Assembly: GCA_023898465.1 (NCBI GenBank)
Contig: CP060223.1
Coordinates: 672,001 to 736,000, forward strand
Source of the DNA: Candidatus Nomurabacteria bacterium
GTDB lineage: Bacteria; Patescibacteriota; Patescibacteriia; HK-STAS-PATE-3
Length of the DNA: 64,000 nucleotides
Reading direction: 5' to 3'
This document shows, piece after piece, positions 12,859 to 64,000 of the stretch (its first letter is position 1; the number at the start of each line of letters is the position of its first letter). Below the pieces are notes generated by a model. That model saw nothing but the letters and a program-made list of their open reading frames with translations. It searched no databases and had not been told where the DNA came from. The position numbers and the translations under genes were made by a program.

Positions 12859-12970
12859 AGGATAGCACAAACAGCATGTCAACACACACTTCCCCCAGCG
12901 TAGGTTTTTAACCTGCGCTGGGAATAAATGCCACACAGCGCAGGCTCTCCTGCCTGCGCTCTTTATAAAC

Positions 12971-13004
12971 CAAAAACCAGCGCGGGTTTGAGAGCCCGCG
13001 CTGG
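12971..13004 (-). terminator. Rho-independent terminator after the surface-protein gene
   Basis: Perfect 10-bp stem CCAGCGCGGG/CCCGCGCTGG, 8-nt loop, followed on the minus strand by TTTTTGG. Confidence 0.7.
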
Positions 13005-13028
13005 TGTGTTTATCTTATTCCTTTAAGT

Positions 13029-16000
13029 CTAGCGATTCAGCGGCATGCTGAAGCGTCGCTTATCGAACAACACAACGAATCCGCTGATTATAGCCATCAT
13101 GCCGAGGCCAAAGGCCGCCACATCACCCCAACCAGATCCAGTATCAGCCAAGGTTGATGCACCAAGGACCTGACCGCGCTTCACTACCACATTCTGGCTG
13201 GCGCGAACTTCGCCGTAATTATCTGCTACGGCTTTTGCTACGTTGAGGTAATTCCCAGACGCAGCATTATCAGCCACCTTCACCTCATAAGTGATAGTGC
13301 GAGTATCGTCAGTAAACATGCTGCCGAGAGTCCAGACACGTTCGGTCAAACCTGAATCAGCAAAGGTAAAGCCCTCAGGTAAGATATCTGTTACGCGCAC
13401 GTTTAAGGCAATGCCATCACCAGCGTTTGTTACCTTCAAGGTGTAGGTCAGATAATCACCTGGCTTTGCCTCGTTGGTGTTCACGCTCTTAGTAAGGAGT
13501 AAGAGCGGCTCAGTGCTGACACCCAGGACAGACCCAAGGCGTACCTCAACGGTTGCTTCATCAGCCACTGGATCGGTGTTATCTGCATCAGCTGTTGCTA
13601 CGTTGTCGTAGAAACCGGCCGCTTGGCTGGTGCTCACAATGACATCATAGGTGACTGTCATGCTTTCATTCGCTGCGAGATCACCGAGTGGGAAGCTGCG
13701 AACTGACAAGCCAGTGTCTACAAAGATGAAACCAGCTGGCAATTGATCAGTCATGACTACATTCACTGCAGTGGATTGGCCAATGTTCTTCACGACCACG
13801 GTGTAGGTTACTGTTGCACCCGGATTCACAAAGGTGTCGACATTGACCGACTTCACAATGCTCAGCTCAGGACTGAGAAGCTTGTTACCAAAGTTATTCG
13901 CATTGGAGACTAAGCCTGAAGTCATCACAATCGGACCAAGGGTGATAGGGCTGGAAGTCTGCTCCCAACCATCTTGCAATGTTTCGCTTAACCAGTAGGT
14001 ACCAGGACCAAGATCAGTGAAGCTGTAATTACCATCAGCGTCAGTTAAGGTATCAGCAATAATTGCACCCGGCTGACCATCCTCATCTTCCCAAAGGTTA
14101 ATCTGCCAATTGGCTAAGCCGCTTTCATCCTCATCCCAGGTGCCGTTGCCATTCACATCATGCCATTTTGCACCGTTGATTGATCCGAGTTGAAAGTTAC
14201 CAAAGTCATTCCCGGTCAAGGTAGTGTTTTCACCCAGCTCGAGCGGACCAATAACTACTGGCTCAGAAGTTTGCATCCAACCATCCACTAATGCCTCGTT
14301 CACCCAGTAGGTACCTGGCTCAAGATCAGTGAAGGCGTAGCTGCCATCGGCTGCAGTCTGCGTCGTGGCAATGATATTGCCCGGGCCGTCTTCACCATCA
14401 TCCCAGAGATTAATAGTCCAGCCCTGGATGCCTGGCTCGCCAACTTGTCGCACGCCATCGCCGTTCAAGTCATTCCACTTGGTACCGGCAATAGTAAGTG
14501 AGCGGGTGTTGCCAAACTCCACATAGGCTGGTTCGCCTTGCACTACTTCAACTTCTACACTGAGTGGCGTGGTGTTCATCCAAGCATCTGGCAGGACTTC
14601 ATTCACTTCGTAGGTACCAGTTGGCAAATTCGCAAAGGAGAAACTGCCATCGCTGGCACTCACTTTGCTTTGCCCATTGCTTAGCTGGATAGTGACACCT
14701 TCGATGCCTTCATCGCCGTCGTCACGTACACCATTCGCATTGTGGTCATAATATTTTACTCCGGTGATTTCTCCGGTGTTGCGGGTATTCTCGAGCACAC
14801 AAGTACCACCCTGGCGACCGGTGTCTAAAGTGATAACACCATTTGCATAACTACAGATTCCACTCGCGTTAGTTAAGGTGTAGAGGTTATCGTAGCTACC
14901 TGAAGTTTCAGTCACCATGTACTGCGTCATTGTCGGCACTGACACTGGAGCGCTTGCTTCAGTGAAATCACCCAAGCCTTCAACATGGAAGGTCCAATCC
15001 TGATCGGTCGATGGTCCGCCGCCTACGACTACTTTATCAAAGTCGATAGTAGTGAAGTCGCGCGCATTACAGAGCGTGATGGATGTTTCCTGATCTTCAA
15101 ATACTTCTACCGGCACAGGCAGGGTCGTGCCTTGCGGATTTGTACATGAGTAATCGGAGATATTTTTGTCATCATACCAACCAACAAAATGCCACCCAGG
15201 CAATTGCGTTTCAGTGATTTGATGAGGGCCAACACCGGTCTCGTTGGGCGTGCCCATATCTCGCATCTTTGTTTCAGTGATATCACTCCACTGGAAACCA
15301 AGTTCATTTGCTCGGACATTACCGCCCTCAAATATACCATCACCGTTTTCATCGACTTTCTTATTCACCGTCAGATCACCAGTCGGGCAATCAAGCGGAG
15401 CGGTCAATGAAGATGCGAAGAGAATAAAGCTCTCACCATTATCATCTTCTGGTGATTCGATTTGATAAGCAAAGTAGGTCGCGTTGGCTGGAATAGTTAC
15501 CGTGACTGTTGGATGATCCCACTCTGGACCTTCGTGCGAAGTGAGCAAGTTATGCAGCAGCTCTGTTGCGCCAGCTTGATCAACCAGGTTTGTTGGAACT
15601 GCACCAGTGGCACTCTTTACCCAGAGCGCATCACCGCGATTAGGGTTCGTGTGATCGCCGCCGCCCACACTCAAGGTAAGTGTTGCTTGTCGATCATAAT
15701 CTACTGGAGCAAAAGAATAACTGTACACTTCAGTGTCTGGACCTTTGGGGAAGTAGGGTCGATTCCAATATGCGGTATCCACTCCTCCCAACCAAGTCAC
15801 CAGAGAGGCATCAACATCTTCAGATGCATATACCACGTAAAGACTCGCTCCTAACATTGTGTAAGGACTGGAGTTCTCTACTGTATATGAATGCGTGCCG
15901 GTACTCACATAGCTGCTTACATTTGCGACGTACGCTACTGCATCCAGCGCCTCGCGATACTCAGTACCATTCACTGCATGTCCGTTAAACACAAAACTTG

Positions 16001-38486: not shown

Positions 38487-38860
38487 ACATAAGGAGTATA
38501 GCCGATGCCTCCCTGCTTCGGCAAGGTTCAAATATTCTACCAGGCGTCCCTGCCTTCGCAAGGCTATAAATAGAAAGCCCCGCCTCATCTCAATACAAAG
38601 TGTTGTGATGGACGGGGCATGGGTTTAGGACGACGCATCGTCATCCTTCTTCTCTGGGTCGGGCTTCTCCTCCTCATCTTTTGGAGGATCACCACTCCCC
38701 CCGCTCGGTCGCCAATCCGTTGCAAAACGAACTGGCTCAATGAGCACTGGAGCTTCAGGTTCAGGCTCTTCCGGCGGCGGCTGTTCTGGAATTTTCATCA
38801 CGCGCTCCTTTTCGCCTCCATGGCATCAGCATCTTTCACCAAGTTGAAAAAGAAGTCAAT

Positions 38861-38921
38861 AAGAAAAAGCCTCGCCTCGCACTTCGCTCACCCAAGGGTG
38901 AAAGAAGATACGAGACGAGGC
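38861..38921 (-). terminator. Long-hairpin rho-independent terminator (repeat copy 1)
   Basis: Minus strand: GCCTCGTCTCG-…TCACCCTTGGGTGA…-CGAGGCGAGGC followed by TTTTTCTTATT. Near-identical to the copy at 40316..40376. Confidence 0.65.
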
Positions 38922-38939
38922 GCTAGCAATGTGCAATCC

Positions 38940-39494
38940 TCACAGCGCATCGAAGCTGATCAGTCGACCATCAGGACCAAAAACCCAAAGTCGACTCAGC
39001 CGCTCTAATGTTTGACGGAAGTTTTCCCTGTACTGCTCCAGCGTCGCCCGAACGATTTCCTGGCAATCCTCACCCTGAAGATTCGGGTCTGACTTCAGGG
39101 CAATGATATCGTCCCGGTAGCTTATCGCCGCCTGACGAAGCGCTGCAGCAATCCGACCATTCTGCTCGTGCACAAACTCCCTTCTCAATTGGCCTATGTA
39201 GGCCGCAGCCTGCTGCTCATAGTACTCGATGATCGCCCTGGACACTGCTTCAGCAACACTCAAACGAGTGGCGTAGTGAAGCTTGATCAGCTCCAGTGCT
39301 CTGGAATGGATTTGCCGGCGAAGCCTCCAGTCAAAACCAAAGTGTCCGAGACCTCGACAACGCTCCCTGGCTTCAGCTACTACCGCGTCAACATCCAGAT
39401 CGTTCAGCCCACTCTCCAAGGCCTGCGGCGAGGCACGTACCAAAGCAGATGAGTCAGTTGAGATAAACTCCCAGTTATCCTCTTCTCTACCCAT
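38940..39494 (-). CDS. Hypothetical protein (third gene of a 3-gene operon)
   Basis: Start set at MGREEDNWEF (ATG 39494) with GGAGG SD overlapping the stop of the upstream gene; track ORF extends to 39581. No family recognised. Confidence 0.5.
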   Translation of the reverse strand: MGREEDNWEFISTDSSALVRASPQALESGLNDLDVDAVVAEARERCRGLGHFGFDWRLRRQIHSRALELIKLHYATRLSVAEAVSRAIIEYYEQQAAAYIGQLRREFVHEQNGRIAAALRQAAISYRDDIIALKSDPNLQGEDCQEIVRATLEQYRENFRQTLERLSRLWVFGPDGRLISFDAL

Positions 39495-59777: not shown

Positions 59778-60180
59778 GGGGGATGCCCAATAATCGATCG
59801 ATCGTTCACAATCTGTGCAGGCAAGCCGGTCACCCAGGTCTCCCGTAACAGGCCCTGGAAAAAGCAAGTGTCAATTCATTTGCCAGCAAGGTAAAGAACT
59901 CCATTGCTAACGCAATGCAGTCACTCCAACTTGCGCCAGTTGTCGCGTAAAAACCGATAACCATCTATGCTTACGATGTCCTGAGTTGTTCGCATGGGTG
60001 CTACACTTATCAGGATAGGAACCTACCTTGTCTCGGGTTTGTTCCGAACTATTGAGACTAGGAAATAAATGATTTCGTTCGTTTCATACATTTGTTTCTG
60101 AAGCATTAAAGCGAACTAGGCTTGTAGAATGTACACGATTGTACGATGAGACGCGGGCGTGATACCCGCCATCTCCACCA
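59778..60180 (+). ncRNA. ssrA: tmRNA (ssrA), predicted
   Basis: About 400-nt ORF-free gap right after smpB. 5' GGGGAUG pairs with 3' CAUCUCC-A-CCA, giving a 7-bp acceptor stem with G3:U wobble (the Ala identity element) and encoded CCA. T-arm GCGGG-CGUGAUA-CCCGC sits just before it (same stem as E. coli, deviant loop). 5' AUCGAUCGUUCACAAUC is complementary to 3' GAUUGUACGAU (P2). Perfect 8-bp terminator hairpin immediately follows at 60182-60207. Candidate tag frame ends …LAPVVA-UAA. Confidence 0.6.
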
Positions 60181-61829: not shown

Positions 61830-62570
61830 TTAGAGCGGCGGATTGAAAGAGCTCACGCGTAAAAGCCAGTCCGACAAAACTCCCAACTGACCAATGACCA
61901 TAAGAAATCCTATGAGGAGTAAAAGTGCTCCAGCCACTCGCTGCACATAATACGCTGCTCGTTGGAAACGACGTATCCAATTCGCGAGATGATCAATAGC
62001 CAGGCTCAGTAAGAGGAAAGGTGTCGCAATACCTAGCGCAAACACGAGAAGTAAGAAACCACCTGACCACATACTCTCAGACTGACTGGCTAAGAAGAGA
62101 ATCGTCGCTAACACCGGACCAATACAGGGCGTCCAAGCAAAGCCAAAACTTAGGCCGATTAAAAACGCATTCACGCCATGCGACTTGGTAAAGTACTTAT
62201 GCAAATCAAACTTTGCTTCTCGATAAAGCCAAGGCGCCCGGAAAGCACCAAGGAGAAAAAGTCCAAAGAGGAAGAAGAACACACCGGCAATCTGGGCAAT
62301 AAGATCCCGATGACGTAAAAACATGCTACCGATCGAGCTCGCACCTAAGCCAAGTAAAACAAAGATAAGCACAAACCCAGCTACAAAAAAGAGGCTATGA
62401 CGAAAAACCTGCCAGCGAACTCTGGCTAACTGCTCTGCTGGGGCATTTATTGCCACTCCGCCGAAATAACTTAAGTAGGCCGGGATTAAGGGAAAAACAC
62501 AGGGCGCAAAAAAGGCTACTAGGCCTCCGACAAATGCTGCAACAATATGGACATTGGTTCCGTCAAACAC
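61830..62570 (-). CDS. ccdA: Cytochrome c-type biogenesis / thiol-disulfide transfer membrane protein CcdA (DsbD beta-domain family)
   Basis: FFAPCVFPLIPAYLSY (first Cys motif) and …WTPCIGPVLATIL… (second Cys motif); 6 TM. Confidence 0.85.
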   Translation of the reverse strand: MFDGTNVHIVAAFVGGLVAFFAPCVFPLIPAYLSYFGGVAINAPAEQLARVRWQVFRHSLFFVAGFVLIFVLLGLGASSIGSMFLRHRDLIAQIAGVFFFLFGLFLLGAFRAPWLYREAKFDLHKYFTKSHGVNAFLIGLSFGFAWTPCIGPVLATILFLASQSESMWSGGFLLLVFALGIATPFLLLSLAIDHLANWIRRFQRAAYYVQRVAGALLLLIGFLMVIGQLGVLSDWLLRVSSFNPPL

Positions 62571-62648
62571 CCCAATATCGTACTCGTAGACCGAAAAATG
62601 GTCAATCTAAAAACAACCAGTCTACACTGGCCTGTCTTGTTGTCCATT

Positions 62649-62726
62649 TGGCGGGCCCGACCGGATTCGAACCGGCGATCTTCTCCGTGACAGGGAGACG
62701 TGTTAACCGGGCTACACCACGAGCCC
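62649..62726 (-). tRNA. tRNA-Asp (anticodon GUC)
   Basis: Minus strand: GGGCTCG-TG-GTGT-AGCCCGGTTA-ACAC-G-TCTCC-CTGTCAC-GGAGA-AGATC-GCCGG-TTCGAAT-CCGGT-CGGGCCC-G-CCA; clean cloverleaf, anticodon loop CUGUCAC, encoded CCA; TATACT -10-like element about 40 nt upstream. Confidence 0.9.
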
Positions 62727-62804
62727 ATCAAATAGACAACAAAATCTAGGAAATACGGATGAGAGTATATCAGTAACTTATTAAGCTGTCTAGGGTTTTA
62801 TTAG

Positions 62805-63845
62805 CCTTGAAAACCCCACCCTCCCCGGACCGCCGGAACAACTGACTGCGTCTCAGAAACACATGAGGAGAGAGTTCAATGCGCTTCAAGGAATACAGTC
62901 GGCTCCTGGCGGCCTGGGGAGAGGGTAACGACTAGGCGTTACCCTGTGTGTTGCTAGAGGTAGTGAGGCACGAAGAGAGGGCGTCGGCCGAAGTCAGGCC
63001 CTTTCCCTACGGGCTTAACAACCCGTCGTGTGAAACTCCTTCGATCTGTGTAGGTCGTCGCGATGCAGAGCTTATAACCCCGCTCCTCTGCGACCTGATC
63101 AGGATCGAAGTCAAAAACATCGACAGTGGACTTTGGCATGCAGACCTCCTCGGGTACTCAGCCTCTAGGGTTTGTACAAACTATTCCTCCTCTCACGCCT
63201 CCTCAAAAGAAGAAGTGAGAGGAGGAGAGCAAGTCAGTCGAAACTGCTTGCTCTCCAAAGAAAGATCAACAGTGGTAGGTCTTCGGTCTCTGGCCTCCGA
63301 AAAGGCCGCGGTGCAGACCAGCGTCCGACCTCCTCGTCCTGCGCGGATTCAACCCGTCCTTGGGCGTACATCCGCGAGAAGTGTAGGTCGTCTGTCTCTG
63401 TGCGCCACCTACCCATGGAGCGTAGTTGACGCCGAGGTCGAGCTTCTCCCGAACCGAGAGGCTCGAGAGATCAACAGGACCGATTTGAGGATCGGATTTC
63501 GATTCCGGAGTGAAGTGATCCGTGACCTTCAGCCACGAACCATTCCCTTCTATCCGAACTGACCCTGGACGCGCGTGAATTCTACACATGCCTTCCCCCA
63601 TCTGCTTGCACTGATCCATCAGTGCATGTAAAGGTCCATCTCTACTCCCAACCCCTTCTCACATTCCTGTGAAATGGGATAGGGGTACTTTAGCGGAAGC
63701 GCCTGCTTCTCGCAAGAATCAGCCACCTCCCCTGGACACTCCTCCTCAATGAGGATTGCCCGGGGGAGGCCACGTACACCGATGCATAAGCCTCCGGTGG
63801 ACGTGGCTAAAACAGTGAGTGGTACCAGGACCAAAGCTCAGCGCC
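62805..63845. other. About 1 kb GC-rich, hairpin-dense region without convincing protein-coding signal (candidate large structured ncRNA; unclassified)
   Basis: Numerous perfect or near-perfect GC stems, e.g. GCCACGT-A-CACCG…CGGTG-G-ACGTGGC (63768-63807), GGCCT-ccgaaa-AGGCC (63291-63306), TCACA-ttcc-TGTGA (63658-63671), GAAGC-gcct-GCTTC (63694-63707); a C-UUCG-G tetraloop at 63279-63286; a 12-mer GTGTAGGTCGTC present twice (63047, 63381). The long ORFs on both strands are low-complexity (S/R/G-rich) and mutually overlapping. Confidence 0.35.
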
Positions 63846-64000
63846 CTTGAACAGAGCGAGAACTGCTGCTGGTGCCAGTAAAGAACCAAATGGAAGAGCT
63901 GCCGAGCTGCTCGCCCTGCCGAAGCGGATCAAGCTCAAGCCCAAGATACTACCAGCAGTAGACGCTAGCAGTACGGCAGCCAAGAAAGCAGCTGGACCAA

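What the first reader, a model, noticed from the sequence alone, without database searches (positions are those of the whole stretch)
62727..63845. About 1 kb GC-rich, extremely hairpin-rich, ORF-poor tract adjacent to tRNA-Asp - candidate large structured ncRNA or degenerate mobile RNA element
Immediately beyond the tRNA-Asp promoter the sequence switches to about 58-60% GC and is packed with perfect GC stems (including a 12-bp interrupted helix at 63768-63807 and a C-UUCG-G tetraloop) plus a duplicated 12-mer. Six-frame ORFs here overlap on both strands and are low-complexity, which is typical of structured RNA rather than protein. I could not find universal 16S/23S motifs, RNase P P4 or a group II domain V. 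A plus-strand protein-like reading frame resumes only around 63846 and runs off the window (…AELLALPKRIKLKPKILPAVDASSTAAKKAAGP). Large ornate ncRNAs (GOLLD/ROOL-type) are often found beside tRNA genes; alternatively this could be a very GC-biased, frameshifted or novel gene.
Basis: partly seen in the sequence, partly recalled or inferred. Interest (0 to 1): 0.65.

Follow-up and report, generated by a model that had tools for sequence, protein, structure and literature searches.

The report
Small pilin-linked genes with conserved hairpins
The flagged 1.1 kb is not one big structured RNA: it is the tail of a type IV pilin gene cluster in a Candidatus Nomurabacteria genome, holding two small fast-evolving protein genes separated by strongly folded spacers, one of which is almost unchanged between strains.

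Summary
The tract is real, but it is only 54% GC. Its hairpins sit in three intergenic spacers, not throughout. All genes here are on the minus strand, in this order: prepilin peptidase 3' end (63807-64000), a 107-aa gene (63266-63589), a 61-aa gene (62954-63139), the tRNA-Asp promoter and tRNA-Asp.

Both small ORFs are coding. Two related loci (L005, L011) keep the frames, with dN/dS 0.32-0.39. Over the 107-aa N-terminus, pS is 0.68 against pN 0.12. The "plus-strand frame" at 63846 is the antisense of the peptidase gene. Rfam gives no match to GOLLD, ROOL, group II introns or RNase P.

What is unusual is the spacers. Each cistron is followed by a stem-loop module (E0, E1, T1-E2-T2) with z-scores of -4.8 to -6.0. 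Changes in the stems are compensatory or G.U-compatible on the sense RNA. E2 (62821-62921, 101 nt) has a single substitution across loci whose flanking proteins are only 24-52% identical.

Best reading: sense-strand intercistronic or 3'-UTR RNA elements in a hypervariable pilin accessory locus beside a tRNA. This is the architecture of the P. aeruginosa pilA-accessory-tRNAThr locus. The function of E2 and E1 is inferred, not shown. Interest is moderate to low.

The parts
62649..62726 (-). tRNA-Asp (GTC). It marks the downstream end of the cluster.
   Evidence: ARAGORN. Rfam tRNA, 64 bits.
62727..62792 (-). tRNA-Asp promoter (-35 TAGACA, 17-nt spacer, TG-extended -10 TATACT) and the transcribed leader.
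   Evidence: Promoter scan. The same promoter is found in L002 and L011. The -35, the -10 and the stretch from the -10 to the tRNA (about 38 nt) are identical in all three loci, while the spacer varies.
62793..62817 (-). T2 hairpin (GGGGUUUU-N10-AAAACCC), directly upstream of the tRNA -35 hexamer.
   Evidence: Two compensatory pairs (UA to CG, twice) and one GU to AU change in L011. The loop varies in L005.
62821..62921 (-). E2, a 101-nt long irregular hairpin with a CU-rich apical loop (CUCUCUCCUC). It is nearly invariant.
   Evidence: One substitution in 101 nt among the window, L005 and L011. That substitution is G.U to A-U in a helix. The fold is -49.6 kcal/mol with z -4.4. It is single-copy in the window. 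It is absent from JGI metagenomes and IMG/VR.
62922..62945 (-). T1 hairpin, starting 8-9 nt after the ORF61 stop codon.
   Evidence: Three different sequences in the three loci all fold as hairpins at -12.9 to -15.0 kcal/mol, z -3.9 to -4.8. The window and L005 differ by an A-U to G-C compensatory change.
62954..63139 (-). ORF61, a 61-aa basic soluble protein of unknown function, with a GAGGAGG Shine-Dalgarno sequence 6 nt upstream of the start.
   Evidence: Called as a gene in other assemblies. An 87% homologue, P0003, exists. dN/dS is 0.39. It is collinear with the 59-aa ORF of L011 at 24% identity, E 8e-7, with the same C-terminal YL-stop. pI is 9.4 and there is no transmembrane segment.
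63185..63256 (-). E1, made of adjacent hairpins H1 (14 bp, UUCG loop, 63224-63256) and H2 (a CCUCCUCUCAC arm pairing with a GUGAGAGGAGG arm). It starts 10 nt after the ORF107 stop codon.
   Evidence: Fold z -5.3. Identical in L005 and about 90% identical in L011. All changes within helices are G.U-compatible on the minus-sense RNA (A-U to G.U, U.G to C-G). The window and L005 are identical over 63157-63313.
63266..63589 (-). ORF107, a basic soluble protein. The conserved start is ATG at 63589. The listed 117-aa ORF runs from an upstream ATG at 63619.
   Evidence: Called as a gene elsewhere. dN/dS is 0.32 against L005, and the plus-strand ORF acquires a stop codon in L005. HMMER against 1.8 billion representatives finds P0004, which starts at MCRIHAR. 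The first 59 aa are 44% identical, E 2e-14. Over the N-terminal 26 codons, pS is 0.68 and pN is 0.12.
63590..63806 (-). Spacer IGR-A. Module E0' (hairpins Ha 63769-63807, Hb 63726-63769, Hc 63693-63713) is followed by two more hairpins and the ORF107 ribosome-binding site.
   Evidence: Fold z -6.0. A second copy of E0 follows the pilin gene just beyond the window (L002 540-640), and L011 has a copy after its pilin. Five pairs carry changes on both sides.
63807..64000 (-). 3' end of the prepilin peptidase gene (256 aa, running on to the equivalent of position 64577).
   Evidence: L002 is 100% identical to the window. Pfam A24_N_bact and Peptidase_A24 hit the product. NCBI names it USN53245.1, prepilin peptidase, Candidatus Nomurabacteria.

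Best explanation
The tract is the distal end of a type IV pilin gene cluster in a Candidatus Nomurabacteria (CPR) genome. Everything reads on the minus strand, in this order: pilin, stem-loop module E0, prepilin peptidase, second copy E0', a 107-aa protein gene, module E1, a 61-aa protein gene, hairpins T1-E2-T2, the tRNA-Asp promoter and tRNA-Asp.

Shown:
- The two small ORFs are translated genes under purifying selection. They evolve fast and are restricted to this lineage.
- The spacers fold far better than chance on the sense strand.
- Their stems are kept through compensatory or G.U-compatible changes.
- E2 and E1 are conserved far beyond neutral expectation.

Inferred:
- The cluster is transcribed through from the pilin promoter. 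No sigma70-like promoter or canonical terminator lies between the pilin gene and the tRNA promoter.
- The stem-loop modules act on the RNA as intercistronic or 3'-UTR elements. They would block 3' exonucleases or direct processing, which sets different levels for the pilin and the downstream cistrons. They would also insulate the tRNA promoter from read-through.
- H2 pairs an anti-SD-like arm with an SD-like arm.
- E2 exposes a CU-rich, anti-SD-like loop. It may therefore also control translation, or be released as a 3'-UTR-derived small RNA.

The two small proteins are allele-specific pilin accessory factors of unknown biochemistry.
For: Anatomy and strand.

Coding status:
- dN/dS is 0.32 and 0.39 for the minus-strand frames, against 0.49-1.45 for the other frames.
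- The plus-strand ORF is broken by a stop codon in L005.
- ORF107 and P0004 share their first 59 aa, E 2e-14. Over the N-terminus, pS is 0.68 and pN 0.12.
- ORF61 is collinear with the L011 ORF, E 8e-7.

Structure:
- z is -6.0, -5.3 and -4.8 for the three spacers.
- The minus-sense fold of the whole tract is -490 kcal/mol, against -437 for the plus sense.
- T1 is a hairpin in all three loci, with three different sequences.
- T2 has two compensatory pairs.
- E0 has five pairs changed on both sides.
- The one-sided changes in E1 and E2 are all G.U-compatible only on the minus-sense RNA.

Constraint: E2 differs at 1 of 101 positions. Next to it, T1, T2 and the promoter spacer are diverged, and synonymous sites are near saturation.

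Co-transcription: no promoter or terminator lies between the pilin gene and the tRNA promoter.

Architecture precedent: P. aeruginosa has allele-specific accessory genes between pilA and tRNA-Thr (PMC11626772).
Against: - There are no expression data, so transcription, processing and any small RNA are inferred.
- Only three distinct loci exist. E2 is invariant, so it offers no covariation; only one G.U to A-U change bears on its fold.
- A stability element rarely needs 101 invariant nucleotides, so something sequence-specific is missing from this account.
- The hairpins lack U-tracts, so they are not canonical terminators.
- Codon usage of the two ORFs is atypical for this genome (-0.17 and 0.0 bits per codon, against 0.31 for the host genes). 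The same holds for the peptidase gene.
- Both proteins have no family, fold or solved relative.
- NCBI's annotation did not call either ORF. Both are on record only from Logan and ENA.
Confidence: 0.6

Rival explanations
1. The conserved blocks (E0, E1, E2) act mainly at the DNA level. They would be homologous-recombination anchors that let strains swap pilin and accessory-gene alleles, and they stay alike through repeated gene conversion. This could hold alongside an RNA role.
For: - The locus is a mosaic of near-identical spacers and highly diverged coding segments.
- E0 is duplicated on both sides of the peptidase gene. L011 lacks the peptidase exactly between the E0 halves, as a recombination between the copies would produce.
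- De Bruijn contigs from several samples break at E0 and at the tRNA. This suggests coexisting variants.
- From my own knowledge: conserved 3' repeats (Sma/Cla) flank the Neisseria pil loci.
Against: - Conserved and diverged patches alternate over 10-35 nt (T1, E2, T2, -35, spacer, -10). That is too fine for recombination tracts and fits site-by-site selection better.
- Stems change by compensatory and G.U-compatible substitutions, which points to selection on a folded sense RNA.
- The ORFs in L011 are diverged orthologues, not unrelated cassettes.
Confidence: 0.2
2. E2 and T2 form an upstream regulatory region of the tRNA-Asp promoter. They would be protein-binding DNA at about -40 to -165, like the upstream activating sequences of stable-RNA promoters.
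For: E2 and T2 lie immediately upstream of the conserved -35 hexamer. The tRNA promoter and leader are also invariant. That stable-RNA promoters carry upstream activating sequences comes from my own knowledge of E. coli rRNA and tRNA promoters.
Against: Protein-binding arrays tolerate substitutions, so 100 of 101 identical positions is more than expected. T2 keeps a hairpin through double changes, which a linear binding site would not require. The one change in E2 is G.U to A-U within the predicted helix.
Confidence: 0.1
3. One reading: the whole roughly 1.1 kb is one large structured non-coding RNA (GOLLD/ROOL-like) or a degenerate mobile RNA element such as a group II intron.
For: Many stable hairpins, no Pfam hits for any ORF, and a position next to a tRNA gene.
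Against: - No Rfam match, even at E<=10.
- 510 nt are under protein-level purifying selection in one frame per gene.
- The ORF bodies fold no better than shuffled sequence.
- In L011 the ORF107 C-terminal half is replaced by unrelated coding sequence, while only the spacers stay conserved.
Confidence: 0.03
4. An integron-like cassette array, with small promoterless ORFs each followed by an attC-type imperfect palindrome.
For: Small orphan ORFs all in one orientation, each followed by a 70-120-nt imperfect palindrome that is better conserved than the ORF.
Against: - No R''(RYYYAAC)...R'(GTTRRRY) pair lies within 40-135 nt on either strand.
- The three modules are unrelated to one another in sequence.
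- No integrase is present in the sequence that could be read on the pilin side.
- The ORFs are orthologous across loci rather than exchanged.
Confidence: 0.02
5. E2 is conserved because it encodes a micropeptide. One candidate is the plus-strand MRFKEYSRLLA..., with GAGGAGAGAG 5 nt upstream of its ATG. The other is the minus-strand frame ...ARSRLYSLKRIELSPHVFLRRSQLFRRSGE....
For: Both frames are open across E2 in all three loci (and direct reading). The plus-strand ATG has a strong SD-like sequence upstream.
Against: - There are no synonymous changes at all in 33 codons, although synonymous sites nearby are near saturation. That is not what protein-level selection produces.
- The plus-strand peptide has a different length and C-terminus in each locus: 18 aa in the window, 45 aa in L005.
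- The minus-strand frame lacks a start codon and a Shine-Dalgarno sequence in the window.
Confidence: 0.05

Closest known systems
Pseudomonas aeruginosa pilin island (pilA, allele-specific accessory genes tfpO/tfpW/X/Y/Z, tRNA-Thr)
   Same: A major pilin gene is followed by zero to two small accessory genes that co-vary with the pilin allele, and the locus ends at a tRNA gene (PMC11626772). Here the order is pilin, an optional peptidase, a 107-aa gene, a 61-aa gene and tRNA-Asp. Pilins of the two locus variants are 52% identical and the accessory proteins 24-44%.
   Different: There is no sequence relationship to the Tfp accessory proteins or to any other family. The tRNA is Asp, not Thr. A prepilin peptidase gene sits inside the locus in one variant. 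The conserved spacer hairpin modules have no counterpart in that system that I know of.
Intercistronic stem-loop stabilisers and attenuators in polycistronic mRNAs (REP/BIME-type hairpins; hairpins downstream of major fimbrial or pilin genes such as papA)
   Same: Stable hairpins without U-tracts lie directly after stop codons within an apparent operon, including one straight after the major pilin gene. Stems are kept through compensatory changes.
   Different: The modules are single-copy in 64 kb, not a dispersed repeat family. E2 is conserved in sequence, not only in structure. Function is untested. The comparison with pap and REP elements rests on my own knowledge.
Large ornate bacterial ncRNAs (GOLLD RF01998, ROOL RF03087) and group II introns
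   Same: GC-rich, many helices, next to a tRNA gene.
   Different: No covariance-model match. The region is split by two translated genes. The longest continuous conserved non-coding element is 101 nt.
Neisseria pilE/pilS 3' Sma/Cla repeat
   Same: Conserved non-coding sequence at the 3' side of hypervariable pilin loci. Here, duplicated E0 copies bracket a gene that is present in one variant and absent in the other.
   Different: No silent pilin copies were seen in the window. There is no sequence similarity. The comparison rests on my own knowledge and was not tested.

Membership tests
Rfam large structured RNAs (GOLLD, ROOL, group II intron, RNase P, 6S, OLE) | Covariance-model match at or near the family's gathering score | tested here: not met
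   cmscan of the whole window at gathering thresholds finds only tmRNA and tRNA. A scan of 62500-64000 at E<=10 finds only the tRNA and a Cyano-1 match at E 2.2. The related loci give the same result.
Protein-coding gene (ORF107, 63266-63589 minus strand) | Frame kept in relatives, with excess synonymous change | tested here: met
   dN/dS is 0.32 against L005 (18 synonymous differences over 76 sites, 19 nonsynonymous over 224). Over the N-terminal 26 codons against L011, pS is 0.68 and pN 0.12. BLASTP against P0004 gives E 2e-14.
Protein-coding gene (ORF61, 62954-63139 minus strand) | Frame kept in relatives, with excess synonymous change | tested here: met
   dN/dS is 0.39 against L005. L011 has a collinear 59-aa ORF with an SD sequence and the same C-terminus, E 8e-7. 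The evidence is modest because the gene is short.
Type IV pilin / prepilin peptidase gene cluster | A pilin with the N-terminal methylation motif and an A24 prepilin peptidase | tested here: met
   Pfam N_methyl, and A24_N_bact plus Peptidase_A24, hit the genes of L002. TIGR02532 matches the pilin at E 1.3e-8. NCBI names both proteins accordingly. L002 is identical to the window.
P. aeruginosa Tfp pilin accessory proteins (TfpO/W/X/Y/Z) | Sequence homology to those proteins | tested here: not met
   No hit in Pfam, NCBIfam, PHROGs or PADLOC for either ORF. Only the position, between a pilin gene and a tRNA gene, is shared.
Intrinsic (rho-independent) terminator | GC-rich hairpin followed at once by a U-tract | tested here: not met
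   The scan finds none on the minus-sense strand between 62793 and 63806. The one after the tRNA (62632-62615) is canonical.
Integron cassette array (attC sites) | R'' RYYYAAC and R' GTTRRRY core sites bracketing an imperfect palindrome; an integron integrase nearby | tested here: not met
   A regular-expression search finds no such pair on either strand. No integrase is present in the flanks that could be read. The attC covariance model was not available.
Dispersed repeat / MITE | Multiple copies in the genome | tested here: inconclusive
   E1 and E2 are single-copy in the 64-kb window. They are absent from JGI metagenomes, IMG/VR, phages and plasmids. E0 has two copies, 880 nt apart. The rest of the 1.08-Mb genome could not be searched.
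Structured cis-acting or small RNA (E0, E1, T1-E2-T2) | Fold better than chance, pairs kept through covariation, and a transcript | tested here: inconclusive
   Folding is better than chance (z -4.4 to -6.0). Compensatory changes are seen in T1, T2 and E0, and G.U-compatible changes in E1 and E2. Only three sequences are available, E2 is invariant, and there are no expression data.

The most novel reading that the evidence does not exclude
E2, and perhaps E1, would be a previously undescribed, sequence-specific regulatory RNA of CPR bacteria tied to the pilin locus. One possibility is a 3'-UTR-derived small RNA whose CU-rich loop pairs with Shine-Dalgarno regions. Another is an RNA bound by the adjacent Arg-rich small proteins. 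Either would couple pilus allele or expression state to translation or to tRNA-Asp output. Its near-perfect conservation amid saturated flanks would then reflect a trans-acting interaction surface rather than a simple stability hairpin.
Probability: 0.15. Interest if true: 0.6.

Novelty: new member of a known kind. Interest (0 to 1): 0.3.

Why it matters
For annotation: a stretch of about 1.1 kb that NCBI's pipeline apparently left without genes holds two real, lineage-restricted small protein genes and the end of a prepilin peptidase gene. The flagged "large ncRNA" should not be carried forward.

For biology: CPR (Patescibacteria) bacteria depend on type IV pili for their episymbiotic life (PMC11623550, abstract seen). 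Here a hypervariable pilin locus has co-varying accessory genes next to a tRNA, which resembles the Pseudomonas pilin island. That suggests the same diversifying pressures act on these bacteria.

The one unusual item is E2. It is a 101-nt hairpin with a single change between loci whose synonymous sites are near saturation. It is a concrete, testable candidate for a new cis- or trans-acting RNA in a group where almost no regulatory RNAs are known. Its known distribution is very narrow, three loci in all, which limits both the evidence and the reach.

Tried and rejected
1. Rfam, at gathering thresholds on the whole window and at E<=10 on the region and the related loci: nothing beyond tRNA and tmRNA.
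2. Pfam, PHROGs, PADLOC and NCBIfam on all candidate ORFs: nothing.
3. PDB sequence search: nothing meaningful.
4. AlphaFold2 of ORF107 from a single sequence: pLDDT 41, unusable, so no fold search was run.
5. Word-indexed protein search. ORF117 found only itself and ORF61 found one 87% relative. A profile of the conserved N-terminus found nothing.
6. Genome-contig scan with the neighbouring DsbD-like protein: only a 39% Anaerolineae relative, with no shared gene order.
7. Exact-pattern scans of JGI metagenomes with a 42-mer of H2 and a 24-mer of E2: no hits. IMG/VR gave no E2 hit and four unrelated chance hairpins for the H1 stem pattern.
8. blastn against the phage and plasmid collections: no match.
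9. Plus-strand 204-aa ORF (62948-63562): rejected. dN/dS is 0.64-0.75 and it carries a stop codon in L005.
10. Codon-usage scoring: uninformative for calling these genes, because the bona fide peptidase gene also scores like non-coding sequence. It does show that the block right of the tRNA is compositionally atypical.
11. Paralogy between ORF61 and the C-terminal half of ORF107, suggested by the shared 12-mer encoding TTYT: BLASTP E 0.52, not supported.
12. Integron attC core sites: absent.
It worked later through the protein id, but the 1.08-Mb NCBI contig itself was never returned, so the sequence beyond L002 and L013 could not be read.
14. The first sliding-window z-score script timed out. 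A coarser version ran.
Full report
**What is at the coordinates.** ARAGORN and Rfam place a single tRNA-Asp(GTC) at 62649-62726 on the minus strand. A sigma70-like promoter (TAGACA, 17 nt, TG-extended TATACT) lies at 62792-62764, also on the minus strand. The flagged tract (62727-63845) therefore lies upstream of the tRNA in the tRNA's own direction. Its GC is 0.542, against 0.484 for the rest of the window. That is elevated (2.3% of equal-sized windows elsewhere reach it) but it is not the 58-60% reported.
- the 13-bp interrupted helix at 63769-63807;
- the duplicated 12-mer at 63048 and 63381;
- a C-UUCG-G string at 63281-63286 on the plus strand.

**Rfam.** Nothing in the tract reaches any family's gathering score. 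At E<=10 the only extra match is a chance-level Cyano-1 hit at E 2.2. The same holds for the related loci. GOLLD, ROOL, group II introns, RNase P, 6S and OLE are therefore not present as recognisable members.

**Where the window continues, and whose genome it is.** Exact-protein look-ups recovered short contigs from other assemblies that are 100% identical to the window (L001-L004).
- L002 runs about 1.2 kb past the window's end. It shows, on the same minus strand, a type IV pilin gene (N_methyl motif) followed by a 256-aa prepilin peptidase (Pfam A24_N_bact and Peptidase_A24).
- The peptidase stop codon is at window position 63807.
- Both proteins are in NCBI as USN54062.1 and USN53245.1, "MAG: Candidatus Nomurabacteria bacterium", on a 1,082,586-bp contig.
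- The two small ORFs discussed next are on record only from Logan and ENA gene calls, not from NCBI. This probably explains why the region looked gene-free.

**Two small genes, not an ORF desert.** The minus strand carries a 117-aa ORF (63266-63619) and a 61-aa ORF (62954-63139). The 61-aa ORF has a GAGGAGG Shine-Dalgarno sequence upstream. Neither has a Pfam, PHROGs, PADLOC, NCBIfam or PDB relative. Two related loci could still be recovered.

L005 (Logan SRR17818317) is about 92% identical in DNA.
- All 64 substitutions fall in the ORF bodies or just 3' of ORF61.
- Nei-Gojobori counts give dN/dS of 0.32 for the 117-aa frame (18 synonymous differences over 76 sites, 19 nonsynonymous over 224). 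They give 0.39 for the 61-aa frame.
- The other frames give 0.49-1.45.
- The overlapping plus-strand 204-aa ORF gains a stop codon in L005.

A HMMER search of 1.8 billion cluster representatives then found P0004, a 136-aa protein that begins MCRIHARSGSLRVEGNGSWLKV. This matches the window ORF from its residue 11. The true start is therefore most likely the ATG at 63589, giving a 107-aa product. It is preceded in both loci by GGGGG and a 5-nt spacer.

P0004 lies on L011 (Logan SRR32105342), which has the same gene order: pilin, hairpin module, P0004, hairpin module, a 59-aa ORF, hairpins, tRNA promoter and tRNA-Asp. Comparing the window with L011:
- ORF107 and P0004 are 44% identical over their first 59 residues (E 2e-14) and unrelated after that.
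- Over the N-terminal 26 codons, pS is 0.68 against pN of 0.12. This is strong evidence of translation and shows that neutral sites between these lineages are close to saturation.
- ORF61 and the 59-aa ORF are collinear from start to an identical ...YL-stop, with 24% identity and 50% positives, E 8e-7.
- The pilins are 52% identical.

Both window proteins are hydrophilic, basic (pI 10.0 and 9.4) and lack transmembrane segments. P0004 is acidic. A single-sequence AlphaFold2 model of ORF107 was unusable, with pLDDT 41.

**Where the structure really is.** Folded as minus-sense RNA, the three spacers give these values, and none of 200 dinucleotide shuffles does as well:
- 63620-63810: z = -6.0
- 63135-63320: z = -5.3
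- 62727-62960: z = -4.8

The whole tract folds to -490 kcal/mol in the minus sense and -437 in the plus sense. A scan of the whole window in 150-nt steps puts the two best spacer windows in roughly the top 1%. It also shows that the ORF107 body is ordinary (z of about -1). Comparable or stronger spots occur elsewhere, at 12901-13050 and 38551-39000. The tract is therefore not a continuous 1-kb structure. It is three long spacers (217, 126 and 227 nt) packed with hairpins.

**Conservation of the spacers.** Each cistron is followed by a module.

*E0 (hairpins Ha, Hb and Hc)* follows the pilin gene, and a second copy (E0') follows the peptidase gene. L011 has no peptidase gene at all, and its single E0 joins the two halves. 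Across the three copies, five pairs changed on both sides and were kept. Several pairs are G.U.

*E1 (63185-63256)* starts 10 nt after the ORF107 stop codon.
- Hairpin H1 has 14 bp and a UUCG loop.
- Hairpin H2 pairs CCUCCUCUCAC with GUGAGAGGAGG.
- E1 is identical in L005 and about 90% identical in L011.
- All changes within helices are of the A-U to G.U or U.G to C-G kind. These keep pairing only on the minus-sense RNA.

*After ORF61 come three elements:*
- T1 (62922-62945) is a hairpin whose sequence differs in all three loci but which always folds, at -12.9 to -15.0 kcal/mol.
- E2 (62821-62921) is a 101-nt irregular hairpin with a CUCUCUCCUC apical loop. It shows one substitution among the three loci, a G.U to A-U change in a helix.
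- T2 (62793-62817) has two compensatory UA to CG pairs.

Conserved and diverged patches alternate every 10-35 nt: T1, E2, T2, the -35, the promoter spacer, then the -10 with the leader. That fits site-wise selection better than recombination tracts.

E1 and E2 are single-copy in the window. They are absent from JGI metagenomes, IMG/VR, phages and plasmids.

**How it most likely works.** Between the pilin gene and the tRNA promoter there is no sigma70-like promoter. There is also no hairpin-plus-U-tract terminator on the sense strand, although such terminators do exist in this genome, for example after the tRNA. I therefore infer read-through transcription from the pilin promoter. The stem-loop modules would act on the RNA in these ways:
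- blocking 3' exonucleases or guiding processing, so that pilin, peptidase and the two small cistrons reach different levels;
- insulating the tRNA promoter;
- for H2 and E2, whose arms and loop look like anti-SD and SD sequences, possibly controlling translation or yielding a 3'-UTR-derived small RNA.

These steps are inference, and there are no expression data. A stability hairpin does not need 101 invariant nucleotides, so E2 probably has a sequence-specific partner that I could not identify.

**Rivals.**
- DNA-level recombination anchors for allele exchange. The E0 duplication that brackets a gene present in one variant and absent in the other supports this. So do assembly breaks at E0 and at the tRNA. 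This may coexist with an RNA role.
- An upstream regulatory region of the tRNA promoter.
- A micropeptide encoded in E2. The complete lack of synonymous change argues against it.
- An integron-like cassette array. No R''/R' core sites are present.

**Comparison with what is known.** The architecture matches the P. aeruginosa pilin island. There, allele-specific accessory genes lie between pilA and tRNA-Thr (PMC11626772). There is no sequence homology to those accessory proteins, so this is a resemblance of organisation, not family membership. The hairpin modules resemble intercistronic stabiliser hairpins and are not canonical terminators. Type IV pili are conserved in Patescibacteria and are thought to mediate their episymbiosis (PMC11623550, abstract seen). 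A hypervariable pilin locus in a Nomurabacteria genome is therefore unsurprising.

**Verdict.** The large-ncRNA interpretation is not supported. The fallback, a novel gene, is correct. The region consists of ordinary kinds of things: small orphan genes and operon hairpins in a variable pilin locus. One element is curious, the near-invariant 101-nt E2, and it is worth a targeted follow-up once more related loci or transcript data are available.

Noticed in passing
window 62637-62659 and 62720-62742: The sequences flanking tRNA-Asp are complementary and extend the acceptor stem into a 23-nt helix (83% complementary; leader UUGUUGUCUAUUUGAU against trailer CCAAAUGGACAACAA). The leader half is identical in all three loci. 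This could be a precursor-processing helix.
   Followed up: partly
L005 859-953: L005 carries the first 16 nt of tRNA-Asp (GGGCTCGTGGTGTAGC), then 79 unrelated nt, then the complete tRNA. It looks like a 95-nt insertion bounded by a 16-nt direct repeat inside the tRNA 5' end. The inserted sequence is not found in the window. It may be a scar of an integration event.
   Followed up: partly
window 63690-63806 and L002 540-640 (equivalent to window positions of about 64579-64679): The post-pilin hairpin module E0 is duplicated on both sides of the prepilin peptidase gene. The related locus L011 has one E0 and no peptidase gene. This suggests gain or loss of the peptidase by recombination between E0 copies.
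   Followed up: partly
L001, L002, L005, L011 (contig ends in the tRNA); L013-L016 (contig ends 36-77 nt after the pilin stop codon): Independent de Bruijn assemblies repeatedly break inside tRNA-Asp and inside E0. This is as expected if several locus variants or extra copies coexist in the samples.
   Followed up: no
window 12897-13010: An intergenic spacer holds three tandem hairpins with related stems (CAGCG(C/T)AGG...CCTGCGCTG and CCAGCGCGGG...CCCGCGCTGG). z is about -6.9 on both strands, stronger than anything in the flagged tract.
   Followed up: no
window 38551-39000: The two most structured 150-nt windows of the whole 64 kb (z -7.4 to -8.4) contain long GC hairpins (GCCCCGCC...GGACGGGGC and GCCTCGCCTCG...CGAGACGAGGCG). 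They flank a small ORF region between two convergent genes.
   Followed up: no
window 63048-63059 and 63381-63392: The duplicated 12-mer encodes the same TTYT motif in both ORF61 and ORF107 on the minus strand. The C-terminal halves of the two proteins align weakly (BLASTP E 0.52). An old partial duplication is possible but not supported.
   Followed up: partly
window 63170-63181: A perfect 12-nt palindrome, GTTTGTACAAAC, lies between hairpin H2 and the ORF61 Shine-Dalgarno sequence. It is present in the window and L005 but not in L011. It may be an operator-like site.
   Followed up: no
window 59779-60180 (+): tmRNA gene (Rfam RF00023, 74 bits). An SmpB gene lies next to it (Pfam PF01668 on the matching gene of contig L001).
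   Followed up: no
window 62727-64000 plus L002 and L013: The whole block on the pilin side of the tRNA is 54-60% GC, against 48% for the rest of the window. Its codon usage is atypical even for the genuine peptidase gene. This fits a horizontally acquired or separately evolving island beside the tRNA. Its far border was not reached.
   Followed up: partly
ORF107 residues 6-35 (window 63485-63574, minus strand): The conserved N-terminal motif GSVRIEGNGSWLKV weakly matches a repeated motif (GSVQIASNGTWTYTL) that occurs five times in an 890-aa repeat protein, P0005 (E 9.6e-4). To my eye the motif resembles VCBS-type repeats, which I did not test. The match may be chance.
   Followed up: no
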